Made by a program: the position numbers and the translations under genes. A stretch of 64,000 nt of DNA from Ostreococcus lucimarinus (lineage: Eukaryota): assembly GCA_000092065.1 (NCBI GenBank), contig CP000594.1. One strand, given 5' to 3'. The notes beneath the pieces are model-generated. The model saw only the letters and a list, made by a program, of their open reading frames with translations. It was not told where the DNA came from and ran no database searches. This document shows, piece after piece, positions 44,146-64,000 of this stretch (positions are counted from its first letter, which is position 1; every line of letters starts with the position of its first letter).

Positions 44146-46503
44146 CTAGTCGCCGTCGTCGCTACTGAGCTCGCCGCTAAGAATGGAATCGTCGACGTAC
44201 AGATCCGAGGTATCCAACGCGTTGATGTATCTCGCGAGCATCGCCGCGGACTCCTCAGCCTCTTCTAATTCTTCTAAACGCACTTTCGCGTCCTCGTCTT
44301 GAAGATGCGCGTATTTAGGCGCCCAGGGCGAACCGGGTTCGTCGTCAATGGGCGACCCTGGACTCGTCTCGCTCGCCGGTTCGGGCGTCGGCGCGGCAAC
44401 GGATGGCGACTGTGCGGACATCAGAGCGTCTCTCGACAATCGCGACGCTTCGTCCGGCAAGTGCTCGTCCACATGCACGTTTCTCGCGGCGAGAAGGACG
44501 TTGTGTATGAGCATCACCGCCACCGGTTCGAAAATGCCCGACGACGTCAGCGTCGGCGTGCGAACGCCCGTCGTCAAATCCATGATGTCCCTGGGCGTGA
44601 GCACGGCGAATTTCTTCGGCGCAAATTGAGCGGCGGCGTAAGATGCGAGTCCAATCGACGTCGCGGAGGCTAAAGATCCTAGCAACGAAGGTGCGCCTCG
44701 CGACAAGTGCGCGTCGGCGCTTTCGTCGAGTACGTCTTCGTCCGCGGCGCCGCAGCGGCGCGAAAACGGCGCGCCGTCGAGCAACATTCCGAACACTTCT
44801 TCCGCCGTCTCTTCGACATCTCCCGGACTCGATGGTCGCATCGTCGACGCCCATTCTGACGAAGCGAACGCGCACGTCACGGCGTGTCGGGAAACTTCGT
44901 CCGCGTGGCGCGGATACGCCTTGGCTAATCGCGACCGCAGCGTCGCCATGCGAGGATGTCGGCACACGCCGTCCAGAACAATCGTCGACGCCGGTGCGAG
45001 TCGGCCGCGTTGCGCGCGACCGACCAGACGCAGCGTCGCGACTTCAAATGCGCTCAACGACGGGTGCGATGCGACGCGAAGAGCAAACATCGCGTGACCG
45101 GTTGAACGAAATTTCGGAAGCGCGTCGAGCTCGCTCGGATCCGTCGCCGGACACTTTCCGGTGTCCGCGCCGAGGGTCAGCGCGGAGTACAATATATCGA
45201 TCCAATTCGCCCCGCGTCCGACGCCGGTGACTTTTTCGACGACGCGCGACACGCTCCCGCCTCTCGTCTGCAGTCCGCACATCGGATCCCTGAGCAACTT
45301 CCACGCCTCGGCGTGCGGATCCAAGTACGCCGAGCTTCGACACAGCGTCACTCCCAACCGCATGCCGAGTCGAACGCGCTCGCGCGGAGGAAGCGTGGCG
45401 AGGAGTAAGAACGGGCGTATCAAACCGGCGCGGTACGCCTTGTCTCGGTAATCGCTCTCGCGGTCGAGAACGTCAAATATGAACCCCGCGCGCTCGTCCG
45501 CGGCTTCGCGTTTCGCCAGCCGCAAATCCCACCCGCGCGCGATCTCCTCCGCCGACGCCGTCGCCGTCGCCGCGTCGTCCCCGCGGCTCAGCGCGCGCTT
45601 AAACGCCTTCGCCAACGCCCCGATCGTGGGCACGGACACGTGTCCACCGATGTTTATTCTGCGCGTCGTCGTCTCCGCCGCGGCGCACCTCGCGCACGAT
45701 CCCCCACCCGGCCGCGAGCGCTTGCGCATCACCTCCGCGTCCTCGCCGCACCGCTCGCACGCCGCCGTCCCCCCCCCACACACCATGCACTCGTACGCGT
45801 CGCTCCCGCGCGTCCCACGCCTGACGTGCGAACTCTTTTCCCCGCACCACGAGCACCACGCGACGCGTCTCGTCGCCGCCGCGAACGCCTCGCTCGTCGT
45901 CCACGTCTCCACCCATCCCGCGCACTTCGCGCACCTCCCGTCCCCGATCTTCGCGAATCCCTCCGCGCATCGTTCGCACTTGTGCGTCGCCCTCGCGCAC
46001 CGCGCGCAGTGACTCAGATACGTCCCTCTTCTCCCCGTCGCTCGCGTCACTCGATGTCGCGTCTCTTTGCCGCACCACGAGCACCGCCCGCTCGGCGACA
46101 TCCTTCGCGCGACGCTCTCCACCCCGTCCCCGCCCTCCGCGTCCGACCACTTGAATCCATCATTATTTTTCGTCACCGCGCACGCGCACGCCAGGCACGC
46201 GTCGTCGTCCCATCCGTCGCCGCTTCTCGCCATCGCTCGACACGTCGCGAACCGCGCGCACGCCCGCGTCCGTCCCGCGCACGCCCCGCACGCGCGCGGC
46301 GCTCGCGCGGCGCTCGACCGCGTCACCGCCGCGTGCGACGTCTCGTGGAAGCACCACGAGCACCGCGCGATGAGCGCGCGCGTCGCGGCGGGCGTCGGCG
46401 CGTCGCGCGACGTCGAGGCGCCGGACGCGCTCGGCGTCGCGCTTCGCGTCGAGCGCGCGCGCGAGCTCGGCGCGCGGTCGAGCGCGTCGCGCGCGTCGCG
46501 CAT
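44146..46503 (-). CDS. Hypothetical 785-aa protein with three repeated Cys-rich modules (CSWCG-x-ET/KS-x-H ... C-x2-C ... C-x-RC)
   Basis: ATG at 46503. The modules are CSWCFHETSHAAVTR..., CSWCGKETRHRVTR...HCARCARATHKCERCAEG, and WCSWCGEKSSHVRRG...ECMVCGGGTAACERCGED. The remaining roughly 500 aa are unrecognised. Confidence 0.5.
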   Translation of the reverse strand: MRDARDALDRAPSSRARSTRSATPSASGASTSRDAPTPAATRALIARCSWCFHETSHAAVTRSSAARAPRACGACAGRTRACARFATCRAMARSGDGWDDDACLACACAVTKNNDGFKWSDAEGGDGVESVARRMSPSGRCSWCGKETRHRVTRATGRRGTYLSHCARCARATHKCERCAEGFAKIGDGRCAKCAGWVETWTTSEAFAAATRRVAWCSWCGEKSSHVRRGTRGSDAYECMVCGGGTAACERCGEDAEVMRKRSRPGGGSCARCAAAETTTRRINIGGHVSVPTIGALAKAFKRALSRGDDAATATASAEEIARGWDLRLAKREAADERAGFIFDVLDRESDYRDKAYRAGLIRPFLLLATLPPRERVRLGMRLGVTLCRSSAYLDPHAEAWKLLRDPMCGLQTRGGSVSRVVEKVTGVGRGANWIDILYSALTLGADTGKCPATDPSELDALPKFRSTGHAMFALRVASHPSLSAFEVATLRLVGRAQRGRLAPASTIVLDGVCRHPRMATLRSRLAKAYPRHADEVSRHAVTCAFASSEWASTMRPSSPGDVEETAEEVFGMLLDGAPFSRRCGAADEDVLDESADAHLSRGAPSLLGSLASATSIGLASYAAAQFAPKKFAVLTPRDIMDLTTGVRTPTLTSSGIFEPVAVMLIHNVLLAARNVHVDEHLPDEASRLSRDALMSAQSPSVAAPTPEPASETSPGSPIDDEPGSPWAPKYAHLQDEDAKVRLEELEEAEESAAMLARYINALDTSDLYVDDSILSGELSSDDGD

Positions 46504-49639: not shown

Positions 49640-52600
49640 TCAGGCTGGCGTCGGTACGGCCGAAATCCAGCGCGCGTTGGCGAGCTCTGCGAGGTGGTTG
49701 TGAAACGACGTGTCCGCGTAGAGCGGGAAAGAAGGCGACGTCAAGCTCGTGTACTTGAGATCGCCGTCGACGTAGAACTCAATCGCGCCCGCGTCGTTCA
49801 CGATCACTTGGAAAGTCTCACCCGCGACGAAGACGCCGGCATCGAACTTGTTCACGCCCTTCTCTTGGAATCGGACCTGATTGCCGTTGCAGAACACGGC
49901 GTAGTCGATGGTCGTTTGGCTGTGGCCCGAGGGCGTGCTCGACAAGCCAAACTGCAAGTGCCTGTTGTCGGTGCGCATGCAGTCGCCGGAAATGCCGCGA
50001 ATCTCGTCGCCGACTTTCGTGATGGCGCGCGCGCTGTACGCGCCTCTTGCCCAGTTGTTCCCGCCTTGAGTACGTTTGAGGTAGCCCTGTTTGCCGTCCG
50101 TCGTCATGCCCTGCGAAAGTCCGACCCACTCGATGAGATCCAAGTCGTTCGCACCCTCGTGGACAGTCTGTATCCAGGAGACTCGAGAGAAAGACGCGCC
50201 TGCAGTGTTGAAGCGCGCGGTGGCGTAGAGCGGGAAGGCAGGCGCCTCATCAGACGTCGCAAACGCCGCGCCATCCTTGTAGTACGTGACGACGCCCGAG
50301 TCGAGCACGACCACTTGGAACGTCTCACCGACGAAGTAATCGCCAAAGTCGCCGTCGCGCACGACGCCGTGTTCGGAGATGCGGATCACGCCGTTGTCGC
50401 ACACAATGCCGAAGTCGACCACCTCGTCGACGGAGTTCGTCGAGCCAGAGTTCAAGCCAATCATCATGGACTTGTCCGTTTGGTCGCAATCCGCGGAGAC
50501 GCCACGCACTTCGTCGCCGATCTTCGTGATGGCACGTTTGCTCGTGGCGCCGACGTTCCAGCCACTGCCTGCCATTGTGCGCGTCACTTGGCCCGCGGAA
50601 GACTCGACGCCTTCCGCGTCTTCAAACTCCATGGCCGCCAAGTCGTTCGCGCCCTTGACAACCTTGTGAACCCAGCGCGCGTTGGCCAGCTCTGCGAGGT
50701 GGTTGTGAAACGACGTGTCCGCGTAGAGCGGGAAAGAAGGCGACGTCAAGCTCGTGTACTTGAGATCGCCGTCGACGTAGAACTCAATCGCGCCCGCGTC
50801 GTTCACGATCACTTGGAAAGTCTCACCCGCGACGAAGACGCCGGCATCGAACTTGTTCACGCCCTTCTCTTGGAATCGGACCTGATTGCCGTTGCAGAAC
50901 ACGGCGTAGTCGATGGTCGTTTGGCTGTGGCCCGAGGGCGTGCTCGACAAGCCAAACTGCAAGTGCCTGTTGTCGGTGCGCATGCAGTCGCCGGAAATGC
51001 CGCGAATCTCGTCGCCGACTTTCGTGATGGCGCGCGCGCTGTACGCGCCTCTTGCCCAGTTGTTCCCGCCTTGAGTACGTTTGAGGTAGCCCTGTTTGCC
51101 GTCCGTCGTCATGCCCTGCGAAAGTCCGACCCACTCGATGAGATCCAAGTCGTTCGCACCCTCGTGGACAGTCTGTATCCAGGAGACTCGAGAGAAAGAC
51201 GCGCCTGCAGTGTTGAAGCGCGCGGTGGCGTAGAGCGGGAAGGCAGGCGCCTCATCAGACGTCGCAAACGCCGCGCCATCCTTGTAGTACGTGACGACGC
51301 CCGAGTCGAGCACGACCACTTGGAACGTCTCACCGACGAAGTAATCGCCAAAGTCGCCGTCGCGCACGACGCCGTGTTCGGAGATGCGGATCACGCCGTT
51401 GTCGCACACAATGCCGAAGTCGACCACCTCGTCGACGGAGTTCGTCGAGCCAGAGTTCAAGCCAATCATCATGGACTTGTCCGTTTGGTCGCAATCCGCG
51501 GAGACGCCACGCACTTCGTCGCCGATCTTCGTGATGGCACGTTTGCTCGTGGCGCCGACGTTCCAGCCACTGCCTGCCATTGTGCGCGTCACTTGGCCCG
51601 CGGAAGACTCGACGCCTTCCGCGTCTTCAAACTCCATGGCCGCCAAGTCGTTCGCGCCCTTGACAACCTTGTGAACCCAGCGCGCGTTGGCCAGCTCTGC
51701 GAGGTGGTTGTGAAACGACGTGTCCGCGTAGAGCGGGAAAGAAGGCGACGTCAAGCTCGTGTACTTGAGATCGCCGTCGACGTAGAACTCAATCGCGCCC
51801 GCGTCGTTCACGATCACTTGGAAAGTCTCACCCGCGACGAAGACGCCGGCATCGAACTTGTTCACGCCCTTCTCTTGGAATCGGACCTGATTGCCGTTGC
51901 AGAACACGGCGTAGTCGATGGTCGTTTGGCTGTGGCCCGAGGGCGTGCTCGACAAGCCAAACTGCAAGTGCCTGTTGTCGGTGCGCATGCAGTCGCCGGA
52001 AATGCCGCGAACCTCGTCGCCGACTTTCGTGATGGCGCGCGCGCTGTACGCACCTCTTGCCCAGTTGTTCCCGCCTTGAGTACGTTTGAGGTAGCCCTGT
52101 TTGCCGTCCGTCGTCATGCCCTGCGAAAGTCCGACCCACTCGATGAGATCGAGATCCCGTGAACCTTTATGAACAACTTTTATCCACTTCACATTTTCGA
52201 GGTGTCCTCCACCTTCATCAACGTATCCATCGGCAAACAATGGGAAGATCGGTTCTCTGCTACTATTGTAGACAGAATGTCCTTCTTTATAATAGTGAAC
52301 GATACCCTCGTCATTAAATGCGACCTGGAACGTTTCTCCCGCGAGGTATGTTCCGATCGTGGCCATAAGCTCACCGTCTTCGTAAACTTCCATTGTTCCG
52401 GCATTGCAACCAACGGCATACTCAATAGCATCGCCATCCGAGGGTGTGTAATGAGCGCTGCTCAAACCGAATATCATTTTCGTTGTTGTGTCACTGCAAT
52501 CCGCAGAAATACCGCGAACTTCGTCATAAATTTTAGTTACGGCGCGTTTACTTGTCGAGCGCACAATGTCCATTTTTTCAGGTGTAACCGGCAAGTACAC

Positions 52601-55600
52601 GTCGCCGTGTGACACTTCACATCGCTGGACTGTTTCAAAGTCCATCATGTTTAGCCAATGCATGTGGCTTAGCTTCGCACCTTCGGTGAAGATTCGAGCC
52701 TGGGAGTAAAGAGGGAATTCAACACTTTTAGTGCTGACATGAAGAACATTACCATTTTGCAGATACTCGATGACACCATGCTCGTTGATGACGATAGAAA
52801 ATGTCTCTCCAGGGCTGTACGCCGAAGGAGGCTCGACAATGCGCTCGTGCCTTTGGAAGGCTGACGCATTGTGTTGGTCATTTATGTATTCGGGTGAATC
52901 ACTATCCAATGAATCAAGTGCCAAGTCTGGCGAAGTACCAAGATGTGTTGAAGGCGGTGGACCTTGAGCATCGTTCTCCGGGGTCGGGACTTGAAGTTGG
53001 CCTTCAATCCCATGTGGTGTATTCGGCTCGGGACGTCGATGTGGCTCGATTGTTTTGATGACAACTCCATCTTCAAGGAGACGCAACGTTCCGGCATCAC
53101 AGTATATCGCAAAGGACAGGTTCGTCTGCGCCGGAGCAGTAGCGGTTTCATTCGCAGCGGTTTCATTCAACTGAGCATCTTGATCACCTTGCACCATGAG
53201 TCCAAACATCATCTGTGACTTGTTGTCGGAACAATCGGCAGACACGCCTTTTTTGGTGTCATTCCAACCGCGAATTGATGAACGACTCGTTGCGAAAGCA
53301 AGTAATGAAGCTTCTTCGATGCGTTTTGCCGCCTCTTCACTCAACACGTGAGCGAGAGATCCAGGTGTAAGAGTCGCATTCTCAGGTAGAAGGAACTCAA
53401 CAGGCTCAAGGTCATCGGCACCTTCAATGATTCGGTAAACCCAGCGCGCGTTGGCCAGCTCTGCGAGGTGGTTGTGAAACGACGTGTCGGCGTAGAGCGG
53501 GAAAGAAGGCGACGTCAAGCTCGTGTACTTGAGATCGCCGTCGACGTAGAACTCAATCGCGCCCGCGTCGTTCACGATCACTTGGAAAGTCTCACCCGCG
53601 ACGAAGACGCCGGCATCGAACTTGTTCACGCCCTTCTCTTGGAATCGGACCTGATTGCCGTTGCAGAACACGGCGTAGTCGATGGTCGTTTGGCTGTGGC
53701 CCGAGGGCGTGCTCGACAAGCCAAACTGCAAGTGCCTGTTGTCGGTGCGCATGCAGTCGCCGGAAATGCCGCGAATCTCGTCGCCGACTTTCGTGATGGC
53801 GCGCGCGCTGTACGCGCCTCTTGCCCAGTTGTTCCCGCCTTGAGTACGTTTGAGGTAGCCCTGTTTGCCGTCCGTCGTCATGCCCTGCGAAAGTCCGACC
53901 CACTCGATGAGATCCAAGTCGTTCGCACCCTCGTGGACAGTCTGTATCCAGGAGACTCGAGAGAAAGACGCGCCTGCAGTGTTGAAGCGCGCGGTGGCGT
54001 AGAGCGGGAAGGCAGGCGCCTCATCAGACGTCGCAAACGCCGCGCCATCCTTGTAGTACGTGACGACGCCCGAGTCGAGCACGACCACTTGGAACGTCTC
54101 ACCGACGAAGTAATCGCCAAAGTCGCCGTCGCGCACGACGCCGTGTTCGGAGATGCGGATCACGCCGTTGTCGCACACAATGCCGAAGTCGACCACCTCG
54201 TCGACGGAGTTCGTCGAGCCAGAGTTCAAGCCAATCATCATGGACTTGTCCGTTTGGTCGCAATCCGCGGAGACGCCACGCACTTCGTCGCCGATCTTCG
54301 TGATGGCACGTTTGCTCGTGGCGCCGACGTTCCAGCCACTGCCTGCCATTGTGCGCGTCACTTGGCCCGCGGAAGACTCGACGCCTTCCGCGTCTTCAAA
54401 CTCCATGGCCGCCAAGTCGTTCGCGCCCTTGACAACCTTGTGAACCCAGCGCGCGTTGGCCAGCTCTGCGAGGTGGTTGTGAAACGACGTGTCCGCGTAG
54501 AGCGGGAAAGAAGGCGACGTCAAGCTCGTGTACTTGAGATCGCCGTCGACGTAGAACTCAATCGCGCCCGCGTCGTTCACGATCACTTGGAAAGTCTCAC
54601 CCGCGACGAAGACGCCGGCATCGAACTTGTTCACGCCCTTCTCTTGGAATCGGACCTGATTGCCGTTGCAGAACACGGCGTAGTCGATGGTCGTTTGGCT
54701 GTGGCCCGAGGGCGTGCTCGACAAGCCAAACTGCAAGTGCCTGTTGTCGGTGCGCATGCAGTCGCCGGAAATGCCGCGAATCTCGTCGCCGACTTTCGTG
54801 ATGGCGCGCGCGCTGTACGCGCCTCTTGCCCAGTTGTTCCCGCCTTGAGTACGTTTGAGGTAGCCCTGTTTGCCGTCCGTCGTCATGCCCTGCGAAAGTC
54901 CGACCCACTCGATGAGATCCAAGTCGTTCGCACCCTCGTGGACAGTCTGTATCCAGGAGACTCGAGAGAAAGACGCGCCTGCAGTGTTGAAGCGCGCGGT
55001 GGCGTAGAGCGGGAAGGCAGGCGCCTCATCAGACGTCGCAAACGCCGCGCCATCCTTGTAGTACGTGACGACGCCCGAGTCGAGCACGACCACTTGGAAC
55101 GTCTCACCGACGAAGTAATCGCCAAAGTCGCCGTCGCGCACGACGCCGTGTTCGGAGATGCGGATCACGCCGTTGTCGCACACAATGCCGAAGTCGACCA
55201 CCTCGTCGACGGAGTTCGTCGAGCCAGAGTTCAAGCCAATCATCATGGACTTGTCCGTTTGGTCGCAATCCGCGGAGACGCCACGCACTTCGTCGCCGAT
55301 CTTCGTGATGGCACGTTTGCTCGTGGCGCCGACGTTCCAGCCACTGCCTGCCATTGTGCGCGTCACTTGGCCCGCGGAAGACTCGACGCCTTCCGCGTCT
55401 TCAAACTCCATGGCCGCCAAGTCGTTCGCGCCCTTGACAACCTTGTGAACCCAGCGCGCGTTGGCGAGCTCTGCGAGGTGGTTGTGAAACGACGTGTCCG
55501 CGTAGAGCGGGAAAGAAGGCGACGTCAAGCTCGTGTACTTGAGATCGCCGTCGACGTAGAACTCAATCGCGCCCGCGTCGTTCACGATCACTTGGAAAGT

Positions 55601-56137
55601 CTCACCTGCGACGAAGACGCCGGCATCGAACTTGTTCACGCCCTTCTCTTGGAATCGGACCTGATTGCCGTTGCAGAACACGGCGTAGTCGATGGTCGTT
55701 TGGCTGTGGCCCAAGGGCGTGCTCGACAAGCCAAACTGCAAGTGCCTGTTGTCGGTGCGCATGCAGTCGCCGGAAATGCCGCGAATCTCGTCGCCAACTT
55801 TCGTGATGGCGCGCGCGCTGTACGCGCCTCTTGCCCAGTTGTTCCCGCCTTGAGTACGTTTGAGGTAGCCCTGTTTGCCGTCCGTCGTCATGCCCTGCGA
55901 AAGTCCGACCCACTCGATGAGATCCAAGTCGTTCGCGCTTTCCACGGTCCCTTGTCTCGCCACCGTGCGCACGATCGTCGGTCTCTCTCCTAACCCGACG
56001 CCCAGCGCGCTCAGCGCCAGCCCCGCGCACGCCGCCCGCGCGCCCCATCGCCAGATTCCACCGGAAACCTCCTCGCGACGCCTCTCCGACCGCAACAACG
56101 GCGTCGCCTCATCCCTCGACGTCCACCTCGCCGCCAT
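49640..56137 (-). CDS. Giant membrane-anchored protein of about 12 tandem SPRY-like domains (2165 aa, single exon)
   Basis: Uninterrupted 6.5-kb ORF; the first ATG is MAARW at 56137. N-terminal hydrophobic anchor AACAGLALSALGVGLG. Each module of about 165 aa carries SPRY hallmarks (W..GA.S.RAITK.GDE.RG.S.DC...GETFQVVVLDSGVVTYYKDGAAF...PAFPLYATARF). Modules alternate A/B in a 335-aa supermodule. There are two diverged central modules. Confidence 0.7.
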   Translation of the reverse strand: MAARWTSRDEATPLLRSERRREEVSGGIWRWGARAACAGLALSALGVGLGERPTIVRTVARQGTVESANDLDLIEWVGLSQGMTTDGKQGYLKRTQGGNNWARGAYSARAITKVGDEIRGISGDCMRTDNRHLQFGLSSTPLGHSQTTIDYAVFCNGNQVRFQEKGVNKFDAGVFVAGETFQVIVNDAGAIEFYVDGDLKYTSLTSPSFPLYADTSFHNHLAELANARWVHKVVKGANDLAAMEFEDAEGVESSAGQVTRTMAGSGWNVGATSKRAITKIGDEVRGVSADCDQTDKSMMIGLNSGSTNSVDEVVDFGIVCDNGVIRISEHGVVRDGDFGDYFVGETFQVVVLDSGVVTYYKDGAAFATSDEAPAFPLYATARFNTAGASFSRVSWIQTVHEGANDLDLIEWVGLSQGMTTDGKQGYLKRTQGGNNWARGAYSARAITKVGDEIRGISGDCMRTDNRHLQFGLSSTPSGHSQTTIDYAVFCNGNQVRFQEKGVNKFDAGVFVAGETFQVIVNDAGAIEFYVDGDLKYTSLTSPSFPLYADTSFHNHLAELANARWVHKVVKGANDLAAMEFEDAEGVESSAGQVTRTMAGSGWNVGATSKRAITKIGDEVRGVSADCDQTDKSMMIGLNSGSTNSVDEVVDFGIVCDNGVIRISEHGVVRDGDFGDYFVGETFQVVVLDSGVVTYYKDGAAFATSDEAPAFPLYATARFNTAGASFSRVSWIQTVHEGANDLDLIEWVGLSQGMTTDGKQGYLKRTQGGNNWARGAYSARAITKVGDEIRGISGDCMRTDNRHLQFGLSSTPSGHSQTTIDYAVFCNGNQVRFQEKGVNKFDAGVFVAGETFQVIVNDAGAIEFYVDGDLKYTSLTSPSFPLYADTSFHNHLAELANARWVYRIIEGADDLEPVEFLLPENATLTPGSLAHVLSEEAAKRIEEASLLAFATSRSSIRGWNDTKKGVSADCSDNKSQMMFGLMVQGDQDAQLNETAANETATAPAQTNLSFAIYCDAGTLRLLEDGVVIKTIEPHRRPEPNTPHGIEGQLQVPTPENDAQGPPPSTHLGTSPDLALDSLDSDSPEYINDQHNASAFQRHERIVEPPSAYSPGETFSIVINEHGVIEYLQNGNVLHVSTKSVEFPLYSQARIFTEGAKLSHMHWLNMMDFETVQRCEVSHGDVYLPVTPEKMDIVRSTSKRAVTKIYDEVRGISADCSDTTTKMIFGLSSAHYTPSDGDAIEYAVGCNAGTMEVYEDGELMATIGTYLAGETFQVAFNDEGIVHYYKEGHSVYNSSREPIFPLFADGYVDEGGGHLENVKWIKVVHKGSRDLDLIEWVGLSQGMTTDGKQGYLKRTQGGNNWARGAYSARAITKVGDEVRGISGDCMRTDNRHLQFGLSSTPSGHSQTTIDYAVFCNGNQVRFQEKGVNKFDAGVFVAGETFQVIVNDAGAIEFYVDGDLKYTSLTSPSFPLYADTSFHNHLAELANARWVHKVVKGANDLAAMEFEDAEGVESSAGQVTRTMAGSGWNVGATSKRAITKIGDEVRGVSADCDQTDKSMMIGLNSGSTNSVDEVVDFGIVCDNGVIRISEHGVVRDGDFGDYFVGETFQVVVLDSGVVTYYKDGAAFATSDEAPAFPLYATARFNTAGASFSRVSWIQTVHEGANDLDLIEWVGLSQGMTTDGKQGYLKRTQGGNNWARGAYSARAITKVGDEIRGISGDCMRTDNRHLQFGLSSTPSGHSQTTIDYAVFCNGNQVRFQEKGVNKFDAGVFVAGETFQVIVNDAGAIEFYVDGDLKYTSLTSPSFPLYADTSFHNHLAELANARWVHKVVKGANDLAAMEFEDAEGVESSAGQVTRTMAGSGWNVGATSKRAITKIGDEVRGVSADCDQTDKSMMIGLNSGSTNSVDEVVDFGIVCDNGVIRISEHGVVRDGDFGDYFVGETFQVVVLDSGVVTYYKDGAAFATSDEAPAFPLYATARFNTAGASFSRVSWIQTVHEGANDLDLIEWVGLSQGMTTDGKQGYLKRTQGGNNWARGAYSARAITKVGDEIRGISGDCMRTDNRHLQFGLSSTPSGHSQTTIDYAVFCNGNQVRFQEKGVNKFDAGVFVAGETFQVIVNDAGAIEFYVDGDLKYTSLTSPSFPLYADTSFHNHLAELANARWISAVPTPA
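49650..52165. repeat. Tandem array of near-identical 1005-bp units (about 2.5 copies), 3' block of the SPRY gene
   Basis: Sub-ORFs repeat at exact 1005-bp offsets (49694/50699/51704; 49818/50823/51828) with identical translations. GC is about 65%. Confidence 0.9.
53430..55990. repeat. Tandem array of near-identical 1005-bp units (about 2.5 copies), 5' block of the SPRY gene; same unit as 49650-52165
   Basis: Offsets 53468/54473/55478 and 53592/54597/55602. Translations are identical to the 3' block units. Confidence 0.9.
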
Positions 56138-56393
56138 CGTCGCGCCCGTCTCCCTCACGCGCGCGCGAAATCGATTCAACACCTCCTCACGGCACCGCAA
56201 ACGTCACGAGTCGACGCGCGTCGCCTCGTTCTTTCGCGCGCGCTCGCACCGCGTGGGTCCCGAGACCGGTCGCGCGAGTTATTTCTCCGCCCCGCTCACT
56301 CGCTCGTTCGACGCGCGCCTCGCCGTCGCGGCCGCGCGTCGCTGAATGCCGCGCGCGCCCGGTCCGCGCTGATTGTGCTGACTCGTCAAAGGT

Positions 56394-56477
56394 GTTACGC
56401 GAGTGGGTCGTCGCTTGAGTCATGAACCCTCGATGGTTACGCGAGTGGGTCGTCGCTTGAGTCATGAACCCTCGATG
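56394..56477. repeat. Perfect 42-bp tandem duplication in the SPRY / glucosidase-II-beta divergent region; each copy carries an ATG
   Basis: GTTACGCGAGTGGGTCGTCGCTTGAGTCATGAACCCTCGATG x2. Copy 1's ATG opens a 12-codon uORF (MNPRWLREWVVA*). Copy 2's ATG (56464) is in frame with the downstream gene. Confidence 0.85.
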
Positions 56478-56541
56478 GTTGATTTGTTTCGCCTTTTCGG
56501 TCGTGGCACACGAACCGCACTTCGCGACGCCTCGACCGACG

Positions 56542-58053
56542 ATGCGGCGTCGCGCGCGCGCGACGCTTCGCGCGGCGTGCGTCGCGTGCGTCCTGTCCGC
56601 GACCGTCGTCGCCGCGTCGACGATGCGCGCCGACGCGCGACGCGCGGCGCGGCGAGGCGTCGACCCGATGGCGATCGCATCGTACGACGTCGAGACGTTT
56701 CGCTGCGACGACGGCGCGACGACGCTCGCGATCGCGCGCGTGAACGATGATTATTGCGATTGCGCGGACGGGTCGGACGAACCGGGGACGAGCGCGTGCG
56801 CGGGTCGAGGGCTGGGGAGGGATTCGTTTTACTGTCGAAACCTCGGGGCGACGCCGCGCGCGGTGCCGAGTTCGCGAGTGGACGACGGCGTGTGCGATTG
56901 CTGCGACGGTAGCGACGAAGCGCACGGGAGAAAGGGGACGGTGTGTGAGAACACGTGCACTAGCGAGGCGCGGGCGAGGCGAGAGACGTTGATGGCGACG
57001 CTGGCGGAGCACACAAGAGGGGCGAAGGCACGCGGGAAGGCGGCGGGCAAGGCGAACGGAAAGCGAGAGGGCTGGATTAGGGAGCGCGCGGCGTTGGAGA
57101 GGGAGATGAGCGGGAAGAGGGAGCGTGTTGAGGCGTTGAGAGTCGAGGCGGAGGCGGCGGAAGAGGAAGAGCGGAAGATTCGCGAGGAGAAGGAGGCGGA
57201 GGAAGCCGAGGCGAAGGAGAAAATCGCGGCGGACGCGGTCAAAGCCGAGGATGCCGAGAACGACGCAGGCGCGGCGGAACGAGACGTGGAAAATTCTAAC
57301 GTCGACGAACCGGAAGCTCCAGCAGAGGAGACGGATGAGGAGCGCGGCAAACGCATCGCGAGTCAGTGGATCTCAAACGACGAGAAGAGCGCTGACGACT
57401 CTTCGGCGAGCGAAGAAGAAAAAGTCGCCGCCGAGGGCGCTGTTGAGAGCGACGACTTTATGAGACCCCCTCGCAAGGTTGGTTCGTTCTTTAAACGCTT
57501 GCGGGACGTCGTGCGTCGACCTCGCGACGCCGTACTCGCGTCGCAGGCAAAGTCAAAGCGAGACGCGTACGACGTCGAGCGGCGCGCGCTGGAGGCCAAC
57601 GACGATAAACTCAGAGAGCTGCGAGAAAACATCGATCGCGATTACGGCCCGGACGACGCTCTTATTTCGTTACAAGGTTTGTGTTTCGATCAGAAGATAG
57701 AAAAGTACGTGTACAAGGCGTGCCCGTTTGGTGAGGCCAAACAAGACAACACGCAACTTGGACGAAACTCTGAAGGCGTCCGAATCGACGCCGACGGTAA
57801 GACGATGACTCTGAAATTCGCAGACGGCGACGCGTGTTGGAACGGTCCGAAGCGCTCGCTCACGCTCACCCTCAAATGTGGCGACAAAGAGCGCTTAGCC
57901 GCGATCGAAGAACCGTCTCGATGCGAATACGTCGGCGTCTTCTACGCCCCCGCGGCGTGCGACGACGCCTCCGTCTTCGCCTTGGAGCGCGAGCTCAGCG
58001 ATCTCGACCGCATCCTCGCGGCGTCTTCCATCTCACCGCGCGACGAATTGTAA
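56542..58053 (+). CDS. Glucosidase II beta subunit (PRKCSH-like) with MRH domain and C-terminal RDEL
   Basis: Signal peptide MRRRARATLRAACVACVLSATVVAAS. Motifs FRCDDGATTLAIARVNDDYCDCADGSDEPGTSAC and DGVCDCCDGSDE. C-terminal MRH domain KYVYKACPFGEAKQDN...LKCGDKE...CEYVGVFYAPAAC. Ends ...RDEL. The alternative in-frame ATG at 56464 would bury the signal peptide. Confidence 0.85.
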   Translation: MRRRARATLRAACVACVLSATVVAASTMRADARRAARRGVDPMAIASYDVETFRCDDGATTLAIARVNDDYCDCADGSDEPGTSACAGRGLGRDSFYCRNLGATPRAVPSSRVDDGVCDCCDGSDEAHGRKGTVCENTCTSEARARRETLMATLAEHTRGAKARGKAAGKANGKREGWIRERAALEREMSGKRERVEALRVEAEAAEEEERKIREEKEAEEAEAKEKIAADAVKAEDAENDAGAAERDVENSNVDEPEAPAEETDEERGKRIASQWISNDEKSADDSSASEEEKVAAEGAVESDDFMRPPRKVGSFFKRLRDVVRRPRDAVLASQAKSKRDAYDVERRALEANDDKLRELRENIDRDYGPDDALISLQGLCFDQKIEKYVYKACPFGEAKQDNTQLGRNSEGVRIDADGKTMTLKFADGDACWNGPKRSLTLTLKCGDKERLAAIEEPSRCEYVGVFYAPAACDDASVFALERELSDLDRILAASSISPRDEL

Positions 58054-60750: not shown

Positions 60751-63700
60751 CTATACTAGGAAATCGCTATCGCCGATTAACAACTCCGTTGTCTTGGGCG
60801 AGGTTTCGTCGGCGATGAAGAAGTGGCGCTCGGCCATGTTTTCTTCGTCGCCCATGGTAGAACCGCCAAGCACAGGCGGAACAACGGAGAAAAACTTTTC
60901 AGTGACGCGTTCAAGCAACACGCCTTCGTCGACGAGATGGTTCAACGCGCGCGCAATGAGGTGAATTGGGTACGATTTGCCAAGTGCATTCACGATCCGC
61001 GTCTCCGAGGATCCCGGTTGGTTGAGCGCCACGGCGGCGGCGGCGCGTGTGCAATTTTCAAACGCCGCATTGTCGGCGAAATCCATGGCGTTCTCTGAAG
61101 GCATGGAATATACGATTTCGTTCTCGTGCGTTTCCGTTCGAAGGGCTCCACTCGAAACAAGCACGCCGAGCGCATGATGCACGTTGTACGCTCCAAGTGC
61201 TCCAAAGGTCTCGGCGACTTTCGCCACTCGAAGTTCATCGATGATGACTTGACTCGGTACCGCTGTGCCAGCTTTTTCAACAATCTTCAAGCACTTCGAT
61301 TCTACGTTCTTTAAATTTTTTGCGGGCAAGCGAAGCGTACCGACGGTTTCCACCGCGACTTCTGCACTCGCTTTCGAAGCGTCGAGAATTTCAATCTTCA
61401 CGCTGTGCATCGCCTTGACTGCGACGTTGGGCGATTTAAAGTACGTCGAATCGCCAGCACCTTGACCGTTGAACGCTTGTGGTAACGAGTCTCCCACCGA
61501 GTCAGTCGTGGTAGACATAGCAACTCTATTGTCGACCAATGCTTGGCATAGAGTGAGGACTTGCGGACCGTTCGGAGCGATGCAGGCTACAGTGTTTGGG
61601 GCGTTAGCGTCGAAGAGTGTCTGCGCGTAACTGAGCGCGTCCACTCGAGGCGAGGGCACGACGTGGTCGTGCAAATCCTTGAACGGAACTGTGATTTCCT
61701 CGTCGACGTCTGAATCATCGTAGTCACTAACGTCGTCTTCGTCGCTATCATCGCTCTCGTCCTGAAATGAGATGGCGCGTCGGCGAAGAAATGCGATTGG
61801 CGCGAGACGCGCAAGGATAATGTCGTCGTCGGCCTCAGTGAGATCTCGACCGGCTCGGATTCGACGAACTTTTTCCTCCCGTTTTTGCCTCATGCGATTG
61901 CCGTGTCGAGGTGACTTGGGCACGTCGCGTCGTGAGAGAGGATAAGGCACTGGGAAGTCATGCAAGACTGCGCGCGTAGCTTGCAAAACTTGTTTCGCGA
62001 TGCCCTCTGACCATTTTCCGGTGCAATCCCAGATTTCATCCCAGCGATCGATCGCTTCGGAACTATCCGGCGTCGGTGACGGTAAATGAGGAAGCGCACT
62101 ATCGCGCCGAGCGCGAGCGCCGCGCTCGTAAAATTCTGCCCCGATTCGAAGTATAGCGTCGTGTCTCTGGGTCTTGATATCGCCTTCGTCTTCACCTTCG
62201 CCAACGGTGAGTTGTCTCCAACGCTTTACCACCGTACGCTTCTTCACTACTGGATAACGCGAACGCCACATTGGATCAGAGTACACCACTGACGCACGAT
62301 AGTCACGTTTTTCTGCTCTCAAAGCGTTCGTTCCAGAAAGCGCGATGAAACGAATCATGCAAAACACCAAGAATTCGTCCTCTGACGGGCCAAAGATGAA
62401 TTTCTTGCGCGAGGTGGTTACACCAAATTCACCGTCGCTTTCGTCGTCATCGAACAACTCTTGCGGAGCGACTCTACTATCATCTATGTTTTCTTTTGCT
62501 AAGGCGCTCGATGGGGATTCAATGTGCGATAAAGAGTCCAATCGAAGCGTCGGTGCACGCGCTGTGTTCGCCGGCGGCATAATCGAGCGTTGCGACACAC
62601 GACTGCTTACTTTGAAGCGAGAGTAGTGCGCATACATGTTCAACGCCCTAGCCGCCACGTCTGATGAAACCACTCCATCTGTCACGGCTGCACATATTTT
62701 CGCATAGCAAAAATTTCGCCATGTTTGCTTGATGTGATTCAAATCGTCCGGGAGATCAAGATCTTGGGCGAGTTGCTCGACGCGAAGCGCGTCTTCGTTG
62801 GGCAACCCAGATTCTGCAAGAGATTCGATCGCCGCACCGACGAGCGATTTGTTTTCACTTGCTGAGCCATCGTTCAGATGTTCATCTTTGGTCGAAACCT
62901 CCGCGCGGACGAGCAACAGATGGAGAAGTGCGTCCCAAGCCTCTCGTAAACGATCCATGAGAATGATGCAGTTATCCAACGATAGTGCCCACTTGCGATT
63001 CCACGCGCGCACTGAAGTGATTCGAGGGTAAGTGAAGTCTATAGCCGGGTGCGCGTTATCCATCTCAGGTTTACCCTTAAACGTATTCTCTAGCGCACTC
63101 CAATATTCTCGCGCGCCGGTTTCGGTCGTGACGTCAAAATTTTCGCTCCACGAACTCTCATCCTCGGTGTCGGCAGGTTTCGTTTGAAATCGCGCGCTCT
63201 TTCTGAGCGTTAACACGAGTTCTATTGATTCAGTCGCCTCGTTATACTGAGGCACCTCGTAAAGTAATCCGAGCGTCATCAATCGCTGTGTGAGCCTGGA
63301 CATGTAATACGTCGATTGTACTTTATCACGTAATTCTCTCGGTAAATCTTTCACGAGCTTTTCGCGCAAGCCCTCGGCTTTGATGTGCTCTAAATCTTGA
63401 GCGACAATAGATTTTGACTCCGTGCTGTTCACCACTTTAATGTAAATCGAAATCGGCATTGATCCATCCAGTACGTCGCCGTTAATCGCGCCGTCCTCGG
63501 AGCCGCGCTCGAAAACGTTTGCAACCAAGTACAAGTGTAGGGCTTCGAGACGAACGAGCGCAGACTTGATGTAACCCAACCCGATAGCGTGAAAGTCGTG
63601 AAGCGTCCGGTAATTAGAGCGAATGTCAACATCGTCCTCCATGACTACGTCTCGCGTCGCGATTGCAGACGCCGGCGGCGCCGGCAACGCCTGCATCGGT

Positions 63701-64000
63701 TCGACGCGCACGACTTCACTCAAGCCAAGTTTCTTAATCGTGCGCTGCCTATGCGCTACCTCCGTCGTTTGAATGTCATCTTTCAGCGCCTCGATAAAAG
63801 CCGCATCCTCGGCGCTCGCCGGATCAAATGGGTAGTCAATGTGAAACAGAATCTTGTCTGGCGGACGTTCCGTCACACTCCACGCGATCTCGCGCACGAC
63901 GCCTTCGCCGTTACGAACGACGTTATCGACGATCGCATTGATACTTTTCTTGTCGACAGCCTTATACAATCCGCCTTCGGCGGCGGCGAGCCACGTGCTC
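60751..64000 (-). CDS. Large conserved-looking hypothetical protein, 5'-partial (more than 1080 aa; the N-terminus lies beyond the window edge)
   Basis: The frame is open from the stop at 60751 to the window edge. Composition is non-repetitive and globular-looking. An acidic Ser/Asp stretch (DESDDSDEDDVSDYDDSDVDEE) is present. GC is about 50%. No family confidently recognised. Confidence 0.45.
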   Translation of the reverse strand, partial: STWLAAAEGGLYKAVDKKSINAIVDNVVRNGEGVVREIAWSVTERPPDKILFHIDYPFDPASAEDAAFIEALKDDIQTTEVAHRQRTIKKLGLSEVVRVEPMQALPAPPASAIATRDVVMEDDVDIRSNYRTLHDFHAIGLGYIKSALVRLEALHLYLVANVFERGSEDGAINGDVLDGSMPISIYIKVVNSTESKSIVAQDLEHIKAEGLREKLVKDLPRELRDKVQSTYYMSRLTQRLMTLGLLYEVPQYNEATESIELVLTLRKSARFQTKPADTEDESSWSENFDVTTETGAREYWSALENTFKGKPEMDNAHPAIDFTYPRITSVRAWNRKWALSLDNCIILMDRLREAWDALLHLLLVRAEVSTKDEHLNDGSASENKSLVGAAIESLAESGLPNEDALRVEQLAQDLDLPDDLNHIKQTWRNFCYAKICAAVTDGVVSSDVAARALNMYAHYSRFKVSSRVSQRSIMPPANTARAPTLRLDSLSHIESPSSALAKENIDDSRVAPQELFDDDESDGEFGVTTSRKKFIFGPSEDEFLVFCMIRFIALSGTNALRAEKRDYRASVVYSDPMWRSRYPVVKKRTVVKRWRQLTVGEGEDEGDIKTQRHDAILRIGAEFYERGARARRDSALPHLPSPTPDSSEAIDRWDEIWDCTGKWSEGIAKQVLQATRAVLHDFPVPYPLSRRDVPKSPRHGNRMRQKREEKVRRIRAGRDLTEADDDIILARLAPIAFLRRRAISFQDESDDSDEDDVSDYDDSDVDEEITVPFKDLHDHVVPSPRVDALSYAQTLFDANAPNTVACIAPNGPQVLTLCQALVDNRVAMSTTTDSVGDSLPQAFNGQGAGDSTYFKSPNVAVKAMHSVKIEILDASKASAEVAVETVGTLRLPAKNLKNVESKCLKIVEKAGTAVPSQVIIDELRVAKVAETFGALGAYNVHHALGVLVSSGALRTETHENEIVYSMPSENAMDFADNAAFENCTRAAAAVALNQPGSSETRIVNALGKSYPIHLIARALNHLVDEGVLLERVTEKFFSVVPPVLGGSTMGDEENMAERHFFIADETSPKTTELLIGDSDFLV

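What the first reader, a model, noticed from the sequence alone, without database searches (positions are those of the whole stretch)
49640..56137. 6.5-kb single-exon gene built from a dozen SPRY-like domains, with two blocks of near-identical 1005-bp repeats flanking a diverged low-GC core
The encoded protein has an N-terminal hydrophobic anchor followed by about 12 SPRY/ConA-like modules. This is an unusual architecture, since SPRY usually occurs once or twice per protein. At the DNA level the outer roughly 2.5+2.5 supermodules are almost base-identical (1005-bp period, 65% GC). The two central modules are strongly diverged and markedly AT-richer (52160-53440). That pattern is what ongoing unequal crossing-over or GC-biased gene conversion would homogenise at the flanks while sparing the centre. 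Such arrays are also prone to assembly collapse or expansion, so copy number may be polymorphic. The function is unknown; candidates are a lumenal/extracellular lectin-like or protein-interaction scaffold.
Basis: partly seen in the sequence, partly recalled or inferred. Interest (0 to 1): 0.75.

Follow-up and report, generated by a model that had tools for sequence, protein, structure and literature searches.

The report
Length-variable repeat-domain membrane protein gene
A 6.5-kb intron-less gene of the tiny marine alga Ostreococcus lucimarinus encodes a probably membrane-anchored chain of 12 SPRY-shaped beta-sandwich domains; its near-identical 1-kb repeats are kept alike within a genome and their number differs (12 to 18 domains) between wild relatives, and the domain belongs to a large uncatalogued family best known from giant bacterial surface proteins.

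Summary
Window 49640-56137 (minus strand) is one ORF identical to O. lucimarinus XP_001421376.1, an uncharacterised "predicted protein". Its order is N-tail/anchor, A-B-A-B-A, C-D, A-B-A-B-A. The A-B supermodule is 1005 bp, and copies differ at 0-5 sites. GC3 is 0.80-0.82 in A/B and 0.45 in C/D.

Syntenic metagenome contigs carry 5+CD+5, 7+CD+5, 7+CD+7 and 9+CD+7 modules. A species about 60% identical has 9+CD+7, with its own homogenised repeats and the same GC3 contrast. This shows concerted evolution with copy-number polymorphism.

The likely product is a type II membrane protein. It has a conserved DEATPLL tail motif, one probable disulfide per module, and sequons only in C/D. It would display a flexible extracytosolic binding array. 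The ligand and function are unknown.

The parts
49640..56137 (-). Complete single-exon CDS (2165 aa plus stop) = O. lucimarinus XP_001421376.1 / UniRef100_A4S716, 'predicted protein'
   Evidence: ORF list and translation; exact-sequence look-up
56093..56113 (-). Codons for D9-L15, DEATPLL: an acidic dileucine-type motif ([DE]xxxL[LI]) in the N-terminal tail. It is invariant across species while the rest of the tail diverges.
   Evidence: N-terminal alignment of five homologues. The sorting role is inferred from established knowledge of the motif and was not tested.
55988..56044 (-). Only hydrophobic stretch of the protein (aa 32-50, GARAACAGLALSALGVGLG); putative signal anchor
   Evidence: Kyte-Doolittle 19-mer maximum is 1.34 here and 1.63-1.68 in orthologues
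53423..55939 (-). N-proximal repeat block A1-B1-A2-B2-A3. Modules: A1 55433-55939, B1 54935-55432, A2 54428-54934, B2 53930-54427, A3 53423-53929.
   Evidence: Repeat finder, six-frame HMM, difference lists
52649..53422 (-). Module C. It is a diverged module with an insertion of about 90 aa rich in Pro/Ser/Asp. It carries 7 of the 8 N-x-S/T sequons. GC3 is 0.45.
52166..52648 (-). Module D. It is diverged (34% identical to A) but complete. GC3 is 0.45. It carries one sequon.
49643..52165 (-). C-proximal repeat block A4-B3-A5-B4-A6 plus a short C-terminal tail (..WISAVPTPA). Modules: A4 51659-52165, B3 51161-51658, A5 50654-51160, B4 50156-50653, A6 49643-50155.
56138..56463 (.). Divergent intergenic region shared with the glucosidase II beta-subunit gene (ORF 56464-58053 +). 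It overlaps a 42-bp tandem duplication (56394-56480) that is itself copy-number polymorphic.

Best explanation
This is a real, intact nuclear gene of Ostreococcus lucimarinus.

Predicted product (inferred, not shown). It is a type II single-pass membrane protein. A short cytosolic N-tail carries a conserved acidic-dileucine sorting motif. A weak signal anchor follows. The rest is a long extracytosolic chain of twelve beta-sandwich domains of about 165 aa, each stabilised by one disulfide. The domain has an SPRY-like, ConA-type fold. By sequence it belongs to a large uncurated family whose other members are mostly giant secreted or surface proteins of Bacteroidota and other bacteria, plus phage virion proteins. 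The protein therefore most likely works as a multivalent binding or adhesion array on the cell surface, or in a compartment topologically equivalent to it. Its reach and valency would be set by the number of modules.

Evolution at the DNA level (shown). The A-B supermodule (1005 bp) is kept nearly identical within a genome. Unequal recombination and gene conversion act among interior repeats, including across the unique C-D core. The same processes add or remove whole A-B units, so natural haplotypes carry 12 to 18 modules. Edge units and the C-D core escape homogenisation.

GC3 contrast (inferred). The gap between 0.80 in the repeats and 0.45 in the core, inside one mRNA, is best explained by a DNA-level process. 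GC-biased conversion in the recombining repeats, and little of it in the core, is the likeliest candidate.
For: Gene reality and copy number:
- The CDS is identical to the NCBI protein.
- The same 5+CD+5 layout appears in an independent metagenome contig, L006.
- Syntenic contigs with 99.1-99.7% identical flanks carry 7+CD+5 (L003), 7+CD+7 (L005) and 9+CD+7 (L004). Every difference is a multiple of A-B.

Concerted evolution:
- Interior A units are identical across copies and across these haplotypes. B units are identical in 19 of 21 copies.
- The L007/L008 haplotype class differs from them by about 6% (A) and 1.8% (B) yet is homogeneous within itself.
- Edge units keep position-specific variants across haplotypes.
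- A species with only 56-71% identical A/B modules (L002, 531-kb contig) has the same (AB)nA-C-D-(AB)mA plan, 9+CD+7, with its own homogenised units.

GC3:
- A/B 0.80-0.82 against C/D 0.45, with equal GC1 and GC2. The same contrast is seen in L002: 0.70-0.75 against 0.41-0.50.
- The 22 ORFs of the window span 0.57-0.85.

Fold and family:
- A profile search finds 4605 representative proteins, many with 3-25 copies.
- T9SS sorting domains are present in P0077 and P0078.
- hhalign of alga against Bacteroidota domains gives 99.8% probability, E 1.7e-27.
- Bacteroidota genomes carrying the domain were named by a GTDB scan.
- Phage virion-protein PHROGs and a solved 'structural protein' also match.

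Topology:
- The protein has a single hydrophobic stretch, and DEATPLL is invariant.
- Two Cys per module are near-invariant in the alga. Both are lost together in one module of P0006.
- All 8 sequons lie in C/D.
- The di-domain model has good domains but pTM 0.55, with a pLDDT dip at the junction. That gives no confident fixed interface, as in beads on a string.
Against: - No experiment and no expression data were available. Localisation, glycosylation, the disulfides and any ligand are all inferred.
- The anchor is only weakly hydrophobic in this species (1.34).
- Solved SPRY domains are mostly intracellular protein-binding modules. A fold match does not say whether the ligand is a protein or a glycan.
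- The sequencing technology of the metagenome assemblies is inferred from contig names and lengths. L003 has frameshifts, so it is a noisy long-read assembly, and copy numbers from such assemblies can be wrong.
- GC-biased conversion was not tested directionally, because substitutions could not be polarised. It also does not by itself explain why C/D GC3 lies below the local genomic range.
Confidence: 0.6

Rival explanations
1. Assembly artefact: the near-identical units are mis-assembled or over-expanded copies of one unit, and the real gene has one or a few modules.
For: Short-read metagenome assemblies do give one-module versions with the same N- and C-termini: P0007 (237 aa, 1-kb contig) and P0010/P0011. 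L008 shows only 5 modules without C-D.
Against: The termini of P0011 match those of the 18-module gene in the 531-kb contig L002, so the one-module forms are the collapsed ones. Five independent contigs of 103-301 kb traverse full arrays in the same synteny, and one reproduces the reference layout exactly. Position-specific variants in edge units recur across assemblies.
Confidence: 0.04
2. A one-off recent duplication. The repeats are alike only because they duplicated very recently, with no ongoing homogenisation or turnover.
For: The two 2.49-kb blocks differ at only about 7 sites. A single recent duplication of ABABA-CD would give that.
Against: The same two-sided architecture exists in a species whose modules are only 56-71% identical, with repeats homogenised to that species' own sequence. 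A second haplotype class (L007/L008) is homogenised to a different sequence. Copy numbers differ among haplotypes that are 99% identical in the flanks.
Confidence: 0.08
3. A cytosolic or nuclear SPRY-type protein-interaction scaffold. This takes the first reader's SPRY reading literally.
For: The best structural matches are intracellular SPRY/B30.2 domains: SPRYD3, TRIMs, RanBP9/10, Ash2L, DDX1.
Against: There is no sequence match to SPRY. No RING, B-box, SOCS or PRY partner domains are present. The protein has an N-terminal hydrophobic segment, paired conserved Cys and clustered sequons. Its demonstrable homologues are secreted or surface bacterial proteins and virion proteins.
Confidence: 0.08
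4. An endomembrane (ER, Golgi or vacuole) lectin-type receptor rather than a surface protein. The dileucine tail would send it to an endosomal or vacuolar compartment, and the array would bind glycans in the lumen.
Against: The linkage to glucosidase II beta is not conserved in the related species L002 or in L001. A cargo receptor has no obvious need for a 12-18-module array of variable length. SPRY matches outrank the lectin matches.
Confidence: 0.2
5. The low-GC C-D core is a later insertion from a foreign or low-GC source, not a spared part of the original array.
For: Its GC3 of 0.45 is below every ORF in the window.
Against: C and D are clear homologues of A/B (HMM scores 207-267 for D). 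Their GC1 and GC2 equal those of A/B. They occupy the same position, with the same low GC3, in a species about 60% identical. So the state is old and maintained.
Confidence: 0.05

Closest known systems
SPRY / B30.2 domains (Pfam PF00622; e.g. SPRYD3 2yyo, TRIM67 7qs5, RanBP9 5ji7, Ash2L 6e2h)
   Different: Identity is 8-12%. Pfam SPRY matches neither the protein nor any of 60 family members. hhalign against TRIM21 PRYSPRY gives 0.3% probability. There are no PRY, RING, SOCS or other partner domains. The predicted location is extracytosolic with a disulfide. There are 12 tandem copies instead of 1-3.
Uncurated repeat domain of giant Bacteroidota T9SS surface proteins (Flavobacterium, Chitinophagaceae, Cytophagales and others), of other bacteria, and of phage virion proteins (PHROG 19691/26502; PDB 26gp_Q 'structural protein'; Cellulophaga phage phi13:1 S0A0Y9)
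   Same: Demonstrable homology: hhalign 99.8%, E 1.7e-27, 29% identity. The profile search finds 4605 representative proteins, 441 of them at E<=1e-30. The domain is typically present in 3-25 tandem copies on secreted or surface proteins.
   Different: The alga uses an N-terminal signal anchor with a dileucine tail instead of a signal peptide plus a C-terminal T9SS sorting domain. The algal modules have a Cys pair and a highly conserved S-x-RA-x-TK-x-x-DE-x-x-G-x-S-x-DC segment that the bacterial domains lack. The algal copies are near-identical, whereas the bacterial copies within one protein are diverged.
Tandem-repeat cell-surface adhesin genes whose repeat number varies by intragenic recombination (yeast FLO/ALS type; from general knowledge)
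   Same: In-frame repeats of high identity. Copy number changes in whole units between individuals. Repeats are homogenised within a gene.
   Different: The unit here is a pair of whole folded domains of about 165 aa each (1005 bp), not a short Ser/Thr-rich spacer repeat. A unique two-module core interrupts the array. No adhesion phenotype is known.
The 'accordion' tandem repeat on the small outlier chromosome of O. mediterraneus / O. tauri (PMC13390643)
   Same: Same genus. Repeat units of 1-2 kb whose number (3-8) expands and contracts between closely related lines.
   Different: It is a different locus on the outlier chromosome. Its ORFs have no recognisable domains and show no evidence of purifying selection. 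It is not one long in-frame gene. The gene here lies on a 709-kb standard-size record among housekeeping genes.

Membership tests
SPRY / B30.2 (Pfam PF00622) | Significant match to the SPRY sequence profile | tested here: not met
   There is no SPRY hit for the whole protein at E<=1. 0 of 60 domain sequences of the family hit SPRY at E<=1. The family profile against TRIM21 PRYSPRY gives hhalign probability 0.3%. No PDB SPRY was found by profile search.
SPRY / B30.2 (Pfam PF00622) | SPRY-type bent beta-sandwich fold | tested here: met
SPRY / B30.2 (Pfam PF00622) | Usual context: intracellular, 1-3 copies, combined with PRY, RING/B-box, SOCS box, LisH/CTLH and similar domains | tested here: not met
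   No such domains appear in the Pfam scan. There are 12 copies. The N-terminal anchor, Cys pairs and sequons point to an extracytosolic location.
Concanavalin A-like lectin/glucanase superfamily (Pfam clan CL0004) | Jelly-roll / beta-sandwich fold shared with LamG, L-type lectins and GH16 | tested here: met
Concanavalin A-like lectin/glucanase superfamily (Pfam clan CL0004) | Sequence match to a member family (e.g. Laminin_G_3, PF13385) | tested here: inconclusive
   The whole-protein summed score is 44.8 bits (E 1.9e-11), but no single stretch passes. Single modules give nothing.
Concanavalin A-like lectin/glucanase superfamily (Pfam clan CL0004) | Carbohydrate- or metal-binding site residues | not tested
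   No residue-level superposition was possible with the outputs available.
Uncurated bacterial / phage / protist repeat-domain family (no Pfam or NCBIfam model) | Significant profile-profile homology over the whole domain | tested here: met
   hhalign 99.8%, E 1.7e-27, 152 columns. hmmsearch finds 4605 proteins at E<=1e-3. No Pfam or NCBIfam model covers the domain.
Uncurated bacterial / phage / protist repeat-domain family (no Pfam or NCBIfam model) | Occurs as tandem arrays in very large secreted or surface proteins | tested here: met
   There are 12 copies here. Relatives have 3-25 copies in proteins of 1.5-6.5 kaa.
Uncurated bacterial / phage / protist repeat-domain family (no Pfam or NCBIfam model) | T9SS C-terminal sorting domain (Bacteroidota members) | tested here: not met
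   It is present in P0077 and P0078 and absent from the algal protein, as expected for a eukaryote.
Tandem gene-internal arrays under concerted evolution | Paralogous units within a genome are more alike than units between lineages | tested here: met
   Interior units show 0-2 differences within an array against about 30 (A) and 9-10 (B) between haplotype classes. Between species they are 56-71% identical at the protein level.
Tandem gene-internal arrays under concerted evolution | Copy number varies by whole units between individuals | tested here: met
   12, 12, 14, 16 and 18 modules at the same syntenic locus. The caveat is that these are metagenome assemblies, not read-level evidence.
Tandem gene-internal arrays under concerted evolution | Edge units escape homogenisation | tested here: met
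   The units next to N, C, D and the C-terminus differ from the interior consensus by 6-13 nt. They keep the same variants across haplotypes.
Type II (signal-anchor) membrane protein with acidic-dileucine sorting signal | Single N-proximal transmembrane segment | tested here: inconclusive
   There is one hydrophobic stretch only. Its Kyte-Doolittle value is 1.34 here and 1.63-1.68 in orthologues. No dedicated TM or signal predictor was available.
Type II (signal-anchor) membrane protein with acidic-dileucine sorting signal | [DE]xxxL[LI] in the cytosolic tail | tested here: met
   DEATPLL is invariant in five homologues while neighbouring residues vary. Its function was not tested.
Type II (signal-anchor) membrane protein with acidic-dileucine sorting signal | Experimentally determined topology and localisation | not testable with these tools
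   This needs tagging, protease protection or surface labelling.

The most novel reading that the evidence does not exclude
Ostreococcus, a naked cell with one of the smallest eukaryotic genomes, keeps a surface 'measuring-stick' adhesin or receptor built from a bacterial-adhesin-type domain. The domain may have been acquired from, or shared with, Bacteroidota or their phages. Module number (12-18) and the fast-evolving A module (dN/dS 0.74 against 0.02-0.30 for neighbouring genes and other modules) would be tuned by recombination in natural populations. They would modulate contact with bacteria, viruses or mating partners. The unique low-GC3 C-D core would be a conserved functional hinge or processing site that is protected from recombination.
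Probability: 0.15. Interest if true: 0.8.

Novelty: new variant of a known kind. Interest (0 to 1): 0.55.

Why it matters
1. It gives a name and context to an uncharacterised 2165-aa protein of a model picoalga. It also exposes a very large domain family with no Pfam or NCBIfam model: 4605 representative clusters across Bacteroidota surface proteins, phage virion proteins and protists. The fold is that of SPRY, so annotation pipelines either miss the domain or mislabel it. Examples are phage proteins called 'Ash2' and IMG fragments called 'IspG'.

2. It is a clean natural example of concerted evolution inside one gene. Interior units are identical, edge units and a unique core escape, and wild haplotypes differ by whole units. 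The GC3 step from 0.80 to 0.45 within a single mRNA removes expression level as a confounder. That makes the locus a good test bed for GC-biased gene conversion in a compact haploid genome.

3. If the protein is on the cell surface, a length-polymorphic binding array is a candidate for alga-bacteria, alga-virus or gamete recognition. No such molecule is known in this organism.

4. In practice, short-read assemblies collapse this gene to one module. Gene catalogues therefore under-represent it.

Tried and rejected
- Tandem Repeats Finder reported nothing in the gene, because its maximum period is 500 bp. The repeat finder and offset comparisons were used instead.
- phmmer and profile searches of PDB sequences with the algal modules gave only a chance antibody hit. 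The broader family profile gave one real hit, a 620-aa phage 'structural protein'.
- The Pfam whole-protein hits HasA, Enolase_N, PAP2 and U79_P34 were rejected. They are sums of sub-threshold matches over 12 repeats, and no stretch passes on its own.
- NCBIfam gave nothing for the module. PHROGs gave nothing for the algal module itself.
- The viral-contig scan (IMG/VR) found no relative, so there is no sign of a prasinovirus copy.
- The AFDB50 fold library was unavailable.
- The first genome-contig scan with the 60-sequence alignment failed for lack of a conserved stretch. It was repeated with six Bacteroidota domains.
- A functional link with the neighbouring glucosidase II beta gene was considered and dropped, because the linkage is absent in L001 and L002.
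- The long antisense ORFs (49694-52162 +, 53468-55993 +) were treated as by-products of a stop-poor, GC3-rich repeat, not as genes.
- The 3' side of the L008/L007 mosaic comparison was uninformative, because L007 has a 100-N scaffold gap after module D.
- Literature searches for the accessions, and for Ostreococcus plus SPRY, found nothing on this gene.

Full report
**1. What is there**

Window 49640-56200 holds one uninterrupted reading frame on the minus strand. From the first ATG (56137) it encodes 2165 aa. An exact-sequence look-up identifies it as XP_001421376.1 / ABO99669.1 / UniRef100_A4S716, a 'predicted protein' of Ostreococcus lucimarinus CCE9901, on a 708,927-bp record. The neighbours are ordinary green-alga housekeeping genes: a KH protein, a GNAT, glucosidase II beta, pheophorbide a oxygenase, TCP-1 and Sec1.

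The protein has a 66-aa N-terminal region followed by twelve modules of about 165 aa, in the order A-B-A-B-A-C-D-A-B-A-B-A. At the DNA level:
- The A-B pair is a 1005-bp unit.
- The six A regions are 99-100% identical, with spacings of 1005, 1005, 1764, 1005 and 1005 bp.
- The two 2.49-kb blocks differ at about 7 interior sites.
- Neighbouring units inside a block differ at 2-5 sites.

The repeats are 59-62% GC and the core (52166-53422) is 46-50% GC. The repeat GC is about 60-62%, not 65%. The compositional difference lies entirely in third codon positions: GC3 is 0.80-0.82 in A/B and 0.45 in C/D, with the same GC1 and GC2.

**2. What the module is**

Pfam gives no SPRY hit. For the whole protein it gives only sums of sub-threshold matches, the most sensible being Laminin_G_3, with no single stretch passing. 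An alignment of 19 modules from this protein and its metagenomic relatives (A1) gave a confident AlphaFold2 model: pLDDT 92.8, pTM 0.89, a 13-strand beta-sandwich.

Fold searches place the model as follows:
- Foldseek agrees, with TM 0.66-0.73 to SPRY domains at about 10% identity.

So the fold is ConA-like and closest to SPRY.

At the sequence level the module is not an SPRY domain:
- 0 of 60 family members hit SPRY or any ConA-like Pfam model at E<=1.
- The family profile against TRIM21 PRYSPRY gives an hhalign probability of 0.3%. My query was verified as identical to 2IWG.

**3. The real relatives**

A word-indexed search found only 14 clusters, all of them metagenomic Ostreococcus-like fragments. 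An exhaustive HMMER search of 1.84 billion representative proteins with the module profile found far more: 4605 proteins at E<=1e-3 and 441 at E<=1e-30.

Most of these are very large proteins with 3-25 copies of the domain. Examples:
- P0077 and P0078 end in a T9SS sorting domain, and P0081 has a Calx-beta domain.
- A scan of GTDB genomes with six such domains found 48 loci, nearly all in Bacteroidota, including Flavobacterium, Chitinophagaceae, Cytophagales, Flammeovirgaceae, Cyclobacteriaceae and Cryomorphaceae.

Profile-profile comparison of the algal modules with these bacterial domains gives 99.8% probability, E 1.7e-27 and 29% identity over 152 columns. Bacterial-type domains also match phage 'virion structural protein' PHROGs 19691 and 26502. 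The family profile hits a solved 620-aa phage 'structural protein', 26gp_Q, at E 1.3e-4. In BFVD the best structural matches are a marine phage protein labelled 'ash2' (TM 0.82, 24% identity) and a Cellulophaga phage structural protein.

Eukaryotic members include a Roombia truncata protein and Tara Oceans metatranscriptome sequences. One of the latter, P0086, again alternates two module types.

No Pfam or NCBIfam model covers the domain. The '12 copies is unusual' argument therefore falls away. For this family, tandem arrays on secreted or surface proteins are the rule.

**4. Copy number and concerted evolution**

Look-ups of cluster members returned contigs with the same gene order: PaO, COX17, glucosidase II beta, this gene, KH, GNAT. 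Their flanks are 99.1-99.7% identical to the window over most of their length. Module counts at this locus:

| Locus | Source | Modules |
|---|---|---|
| window | reference | 5+CD+5 |
| L006 | ENA, 123 kb | 5+CD+5 |
| L003 | ENA, 103 kb, with frameshifts | 7+CD+5 |
| L005 | IMG 3300046163, 301 kb | 7+CD+7 |
| L004 | IMG 3300047157, 280 kb | 9+CD+7 |

The last two are intact ORFs of at least 2765 and 3100 aa. Every difference is a multiple of the A-B unit.

The units behave as expected under concerted evolution:
- Interior A units are identical within and among these haplotypes. B units are identical in 19 of 21 copies.
- The units adjoining N, C, D and the C-terminus carry 6-13 position-specific differences that recur in every haplotype.
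- A more distant haplotype (L007, flanks 93.7% identical) has 9 modules before C. Its units differ from the reference type by about 30 nt (A) and 9-10 nt (B), yet they are uniform among themselves.

A different species (L002, a 531-kb polished contig with different neighbours) has the same plan with 9+CD+7 modules. Its A and B modules are 56-57% and 71% identical to the reference, and again nearly identical to one another.

Units are alike within genomes, different between lineages and variable in number, and the edges are less homogenised. That is the signature of unequal recombination plus gene conversion. Identical A units on both sides of C-D show that exchange crosses the core.

One-module 'genes' in short-read contigs (P0007, P0011) have the termini of the long genes. 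P0011 matches L002.

I infer that the long contigs come from long reads. The evidence is their Flye-style names, 100-N scaffold gaps, frameshifts in L003, and the fact that they traverse 6.5-9.5 kb of near-identical 1-kb repeats. I could not inspect the reads.

**5. The GC3 step**

Across 22 ORFs of the window, GC3 runs from 0.57 to 0.85. In the three ORFs profiled in 300-nt stretches, no stretch falls below 0.50. A/B (0.80-0.82) sit at the top of that range, and C/D (0.45) lie below it.

The same contrast exists in the related species L002: A 0.75, B 0.70, C 0.41, D 0.50. All modules are on one mRNA, so expression-linked codon bias cannot explain the difference. C and D are old, bona fide modules with normal GC1 and GC2, which argues against a foreign insertion.

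GC-biased conversion in the recombining repeats, with a core that takes no part, is the simplest reading. It is an inference. Why the core sits below the genomic range remains unexplained.

**6. The likely product and how it works**

- The only hydrophobic stretch is aa 32-50. Its Kyte-Doolittle value is 1.34, and 1.63-1.68 in orthologues.
- Upstream of it, DEATPLL is invariant in five homologues while the rest of the tail varies. It fits the acidic-dileucine signal [DE]xxxL[LI] of membrane-protein cytosolic tails (established knowledge).
- Each algal module has two near-invariant Cys. In one module of P0006 both are replaced together. This suggests a disulfide.
- All eight N-x-S/T sequons lie in C (7) and D (1). 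C also carries an insertion of about 90 aa rich in Pro, Ser and Asp.
- A two-module model has well-folded domains (pLDDT 83.4) but pTM 0.55 and a confidence dip at the junction. It gives no confident fixed interface.

Together with the secreted or surface nature of the homologues, the best model is a type II membrane protein. It would expose a flexible, multivalent chain of binding domains at the cell surface or in an endosomal or vacuolar lumen, with reach and valency set by module number.

Between the two haplotype classes, the A module has dN/dS 0.74 (23 nonsynonymous and 9 synonymous differences). The values for comparison are 0.30 (B), 0.25 (C), 0.18 (COX17) and 0.02 (TCP-1). A is therefore the fast-evolving module. 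The counts are small and this is not proof of positive selection. The ligand and the biological role are unknown.

**7. Comparison with known things and novelty**

- The gene is annotated but uncharacterised. Searches of the literature found nothing on it.
- In the same genus, a 1.8-kb 'accordion' repeat with 3-8 copies has been described on the outlier chromosome of O. mediterraneus and O. tauri (PMC13390643). It is a different locus and lacks a recognisable coding array.
- The behaviour resembles tandem-repeat adhesin genes of fungi and bacteria. Here, though, the unit is a pair of whole folded domains, and the array is split by a conserved unique core.

I rate it a new variant of a known kind. 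It is real, tidy and useful: an uncurated domain family, a gBGC test bed and a candidate surface molecule. It is not a new principle.

**8. Open points**

L008 has reference-like flanks (99.2%) but L007-type units, only five modules and no C-D. Its upstream region is a mosaic of the two haplotypes, and the switch to L007-type sequence falls about 40 nt into the first A unit. It may be a natural recombinant or deletion allele, or it may be a chimeric consensus. Read-level data are needed to tell.

Noticed in passing
window 56394-56480: There is a perfect 42-bp tandem duplication (2.1 copies) in the 327-bp divergent region between this gene and the glucosidase II beta gene. It overlaps the first ATG of ORF 56464-58053. 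The window, L004 and L005 have two copies. L003 and L006 have one.
   Followed up: partly
L008 4001-6724 (ENA ERZ10646520 contig_21777): This is a syntenic allele with only N+A-B-A-B-A+C-terminus and no C-D core. Its repeat units are of the divergent L007 type, although its flanks are 99.2% identical to the window. The upstream region is a mosaic of both haplotypes. It may be a recombinant or deletion allele, or an assembly chimera.
   Followed up: partly
window 49694-52162 (+) and 53468-55993 (+): Two antisense ORFs of 822 and 841 aa run through the two repeat blocks. Most likely they are stop-free by-products of the GC3-rich repeats and not genes.
   Followed up: no
P0021, P0024 (IMG contig of 249,284 bp): Fragments of this protein are named '4-hydroxy-3-methylbut-2-en-1-yl diphosphate synthase IspG/GcpE' by JGI/IMG. 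Nothing in the sequence supports that name, and it looks like an annotation error. A marine phage relative is labelled 'histone methyltransferase complex subunit ash2'.
   Followed up: no
P0007, P0010, P0011; L001 8001-8747: Short-read metagenome contigs present this gene as a one-module protein of 237-250 aa (anchor + A + C-terminus). P0011 has the termini of the 18-module gene in L002, so it is a collapsed array. P0010 sits in an 80-kb k141 contig with different neighbours and might be either.
   Followed up: partly
window 60751-63969 (-) and 44146-46503 (-); also 4370-7339 (+): ORFs 60751-63969 (1072 aa) and 44146-46503 (785 aa) have no Pfam match at E<=0.001. ORF 4370-7339 (989 aa) was not scanned. 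ORFs 4370-7339 and 60751-63969 lie in the other low-GC stretches of the window (about 0.49-0.53 GC; GC3 0.57-0.60).
   Followed up: no
P0086 (Tara Oceans metatranscriptome, ERR1719464): This is the closest non-Ostreococcus relative (168 bits per domain). It also alternates two near-identical module types. The two-module supermodule under homogenisation may therefore be older than the genus.
   Followed up: no
window A modules compared with L007 9255-9761: Between the two haplotype classes, the A module has 23 nonsynonymous and 9 synonymous differences (dN/dS 0.74). This is well above B (0.30), C (0.25), COX17 (0.18) and TCP-1 (0.02). The counts are small.
   Followed up: partly
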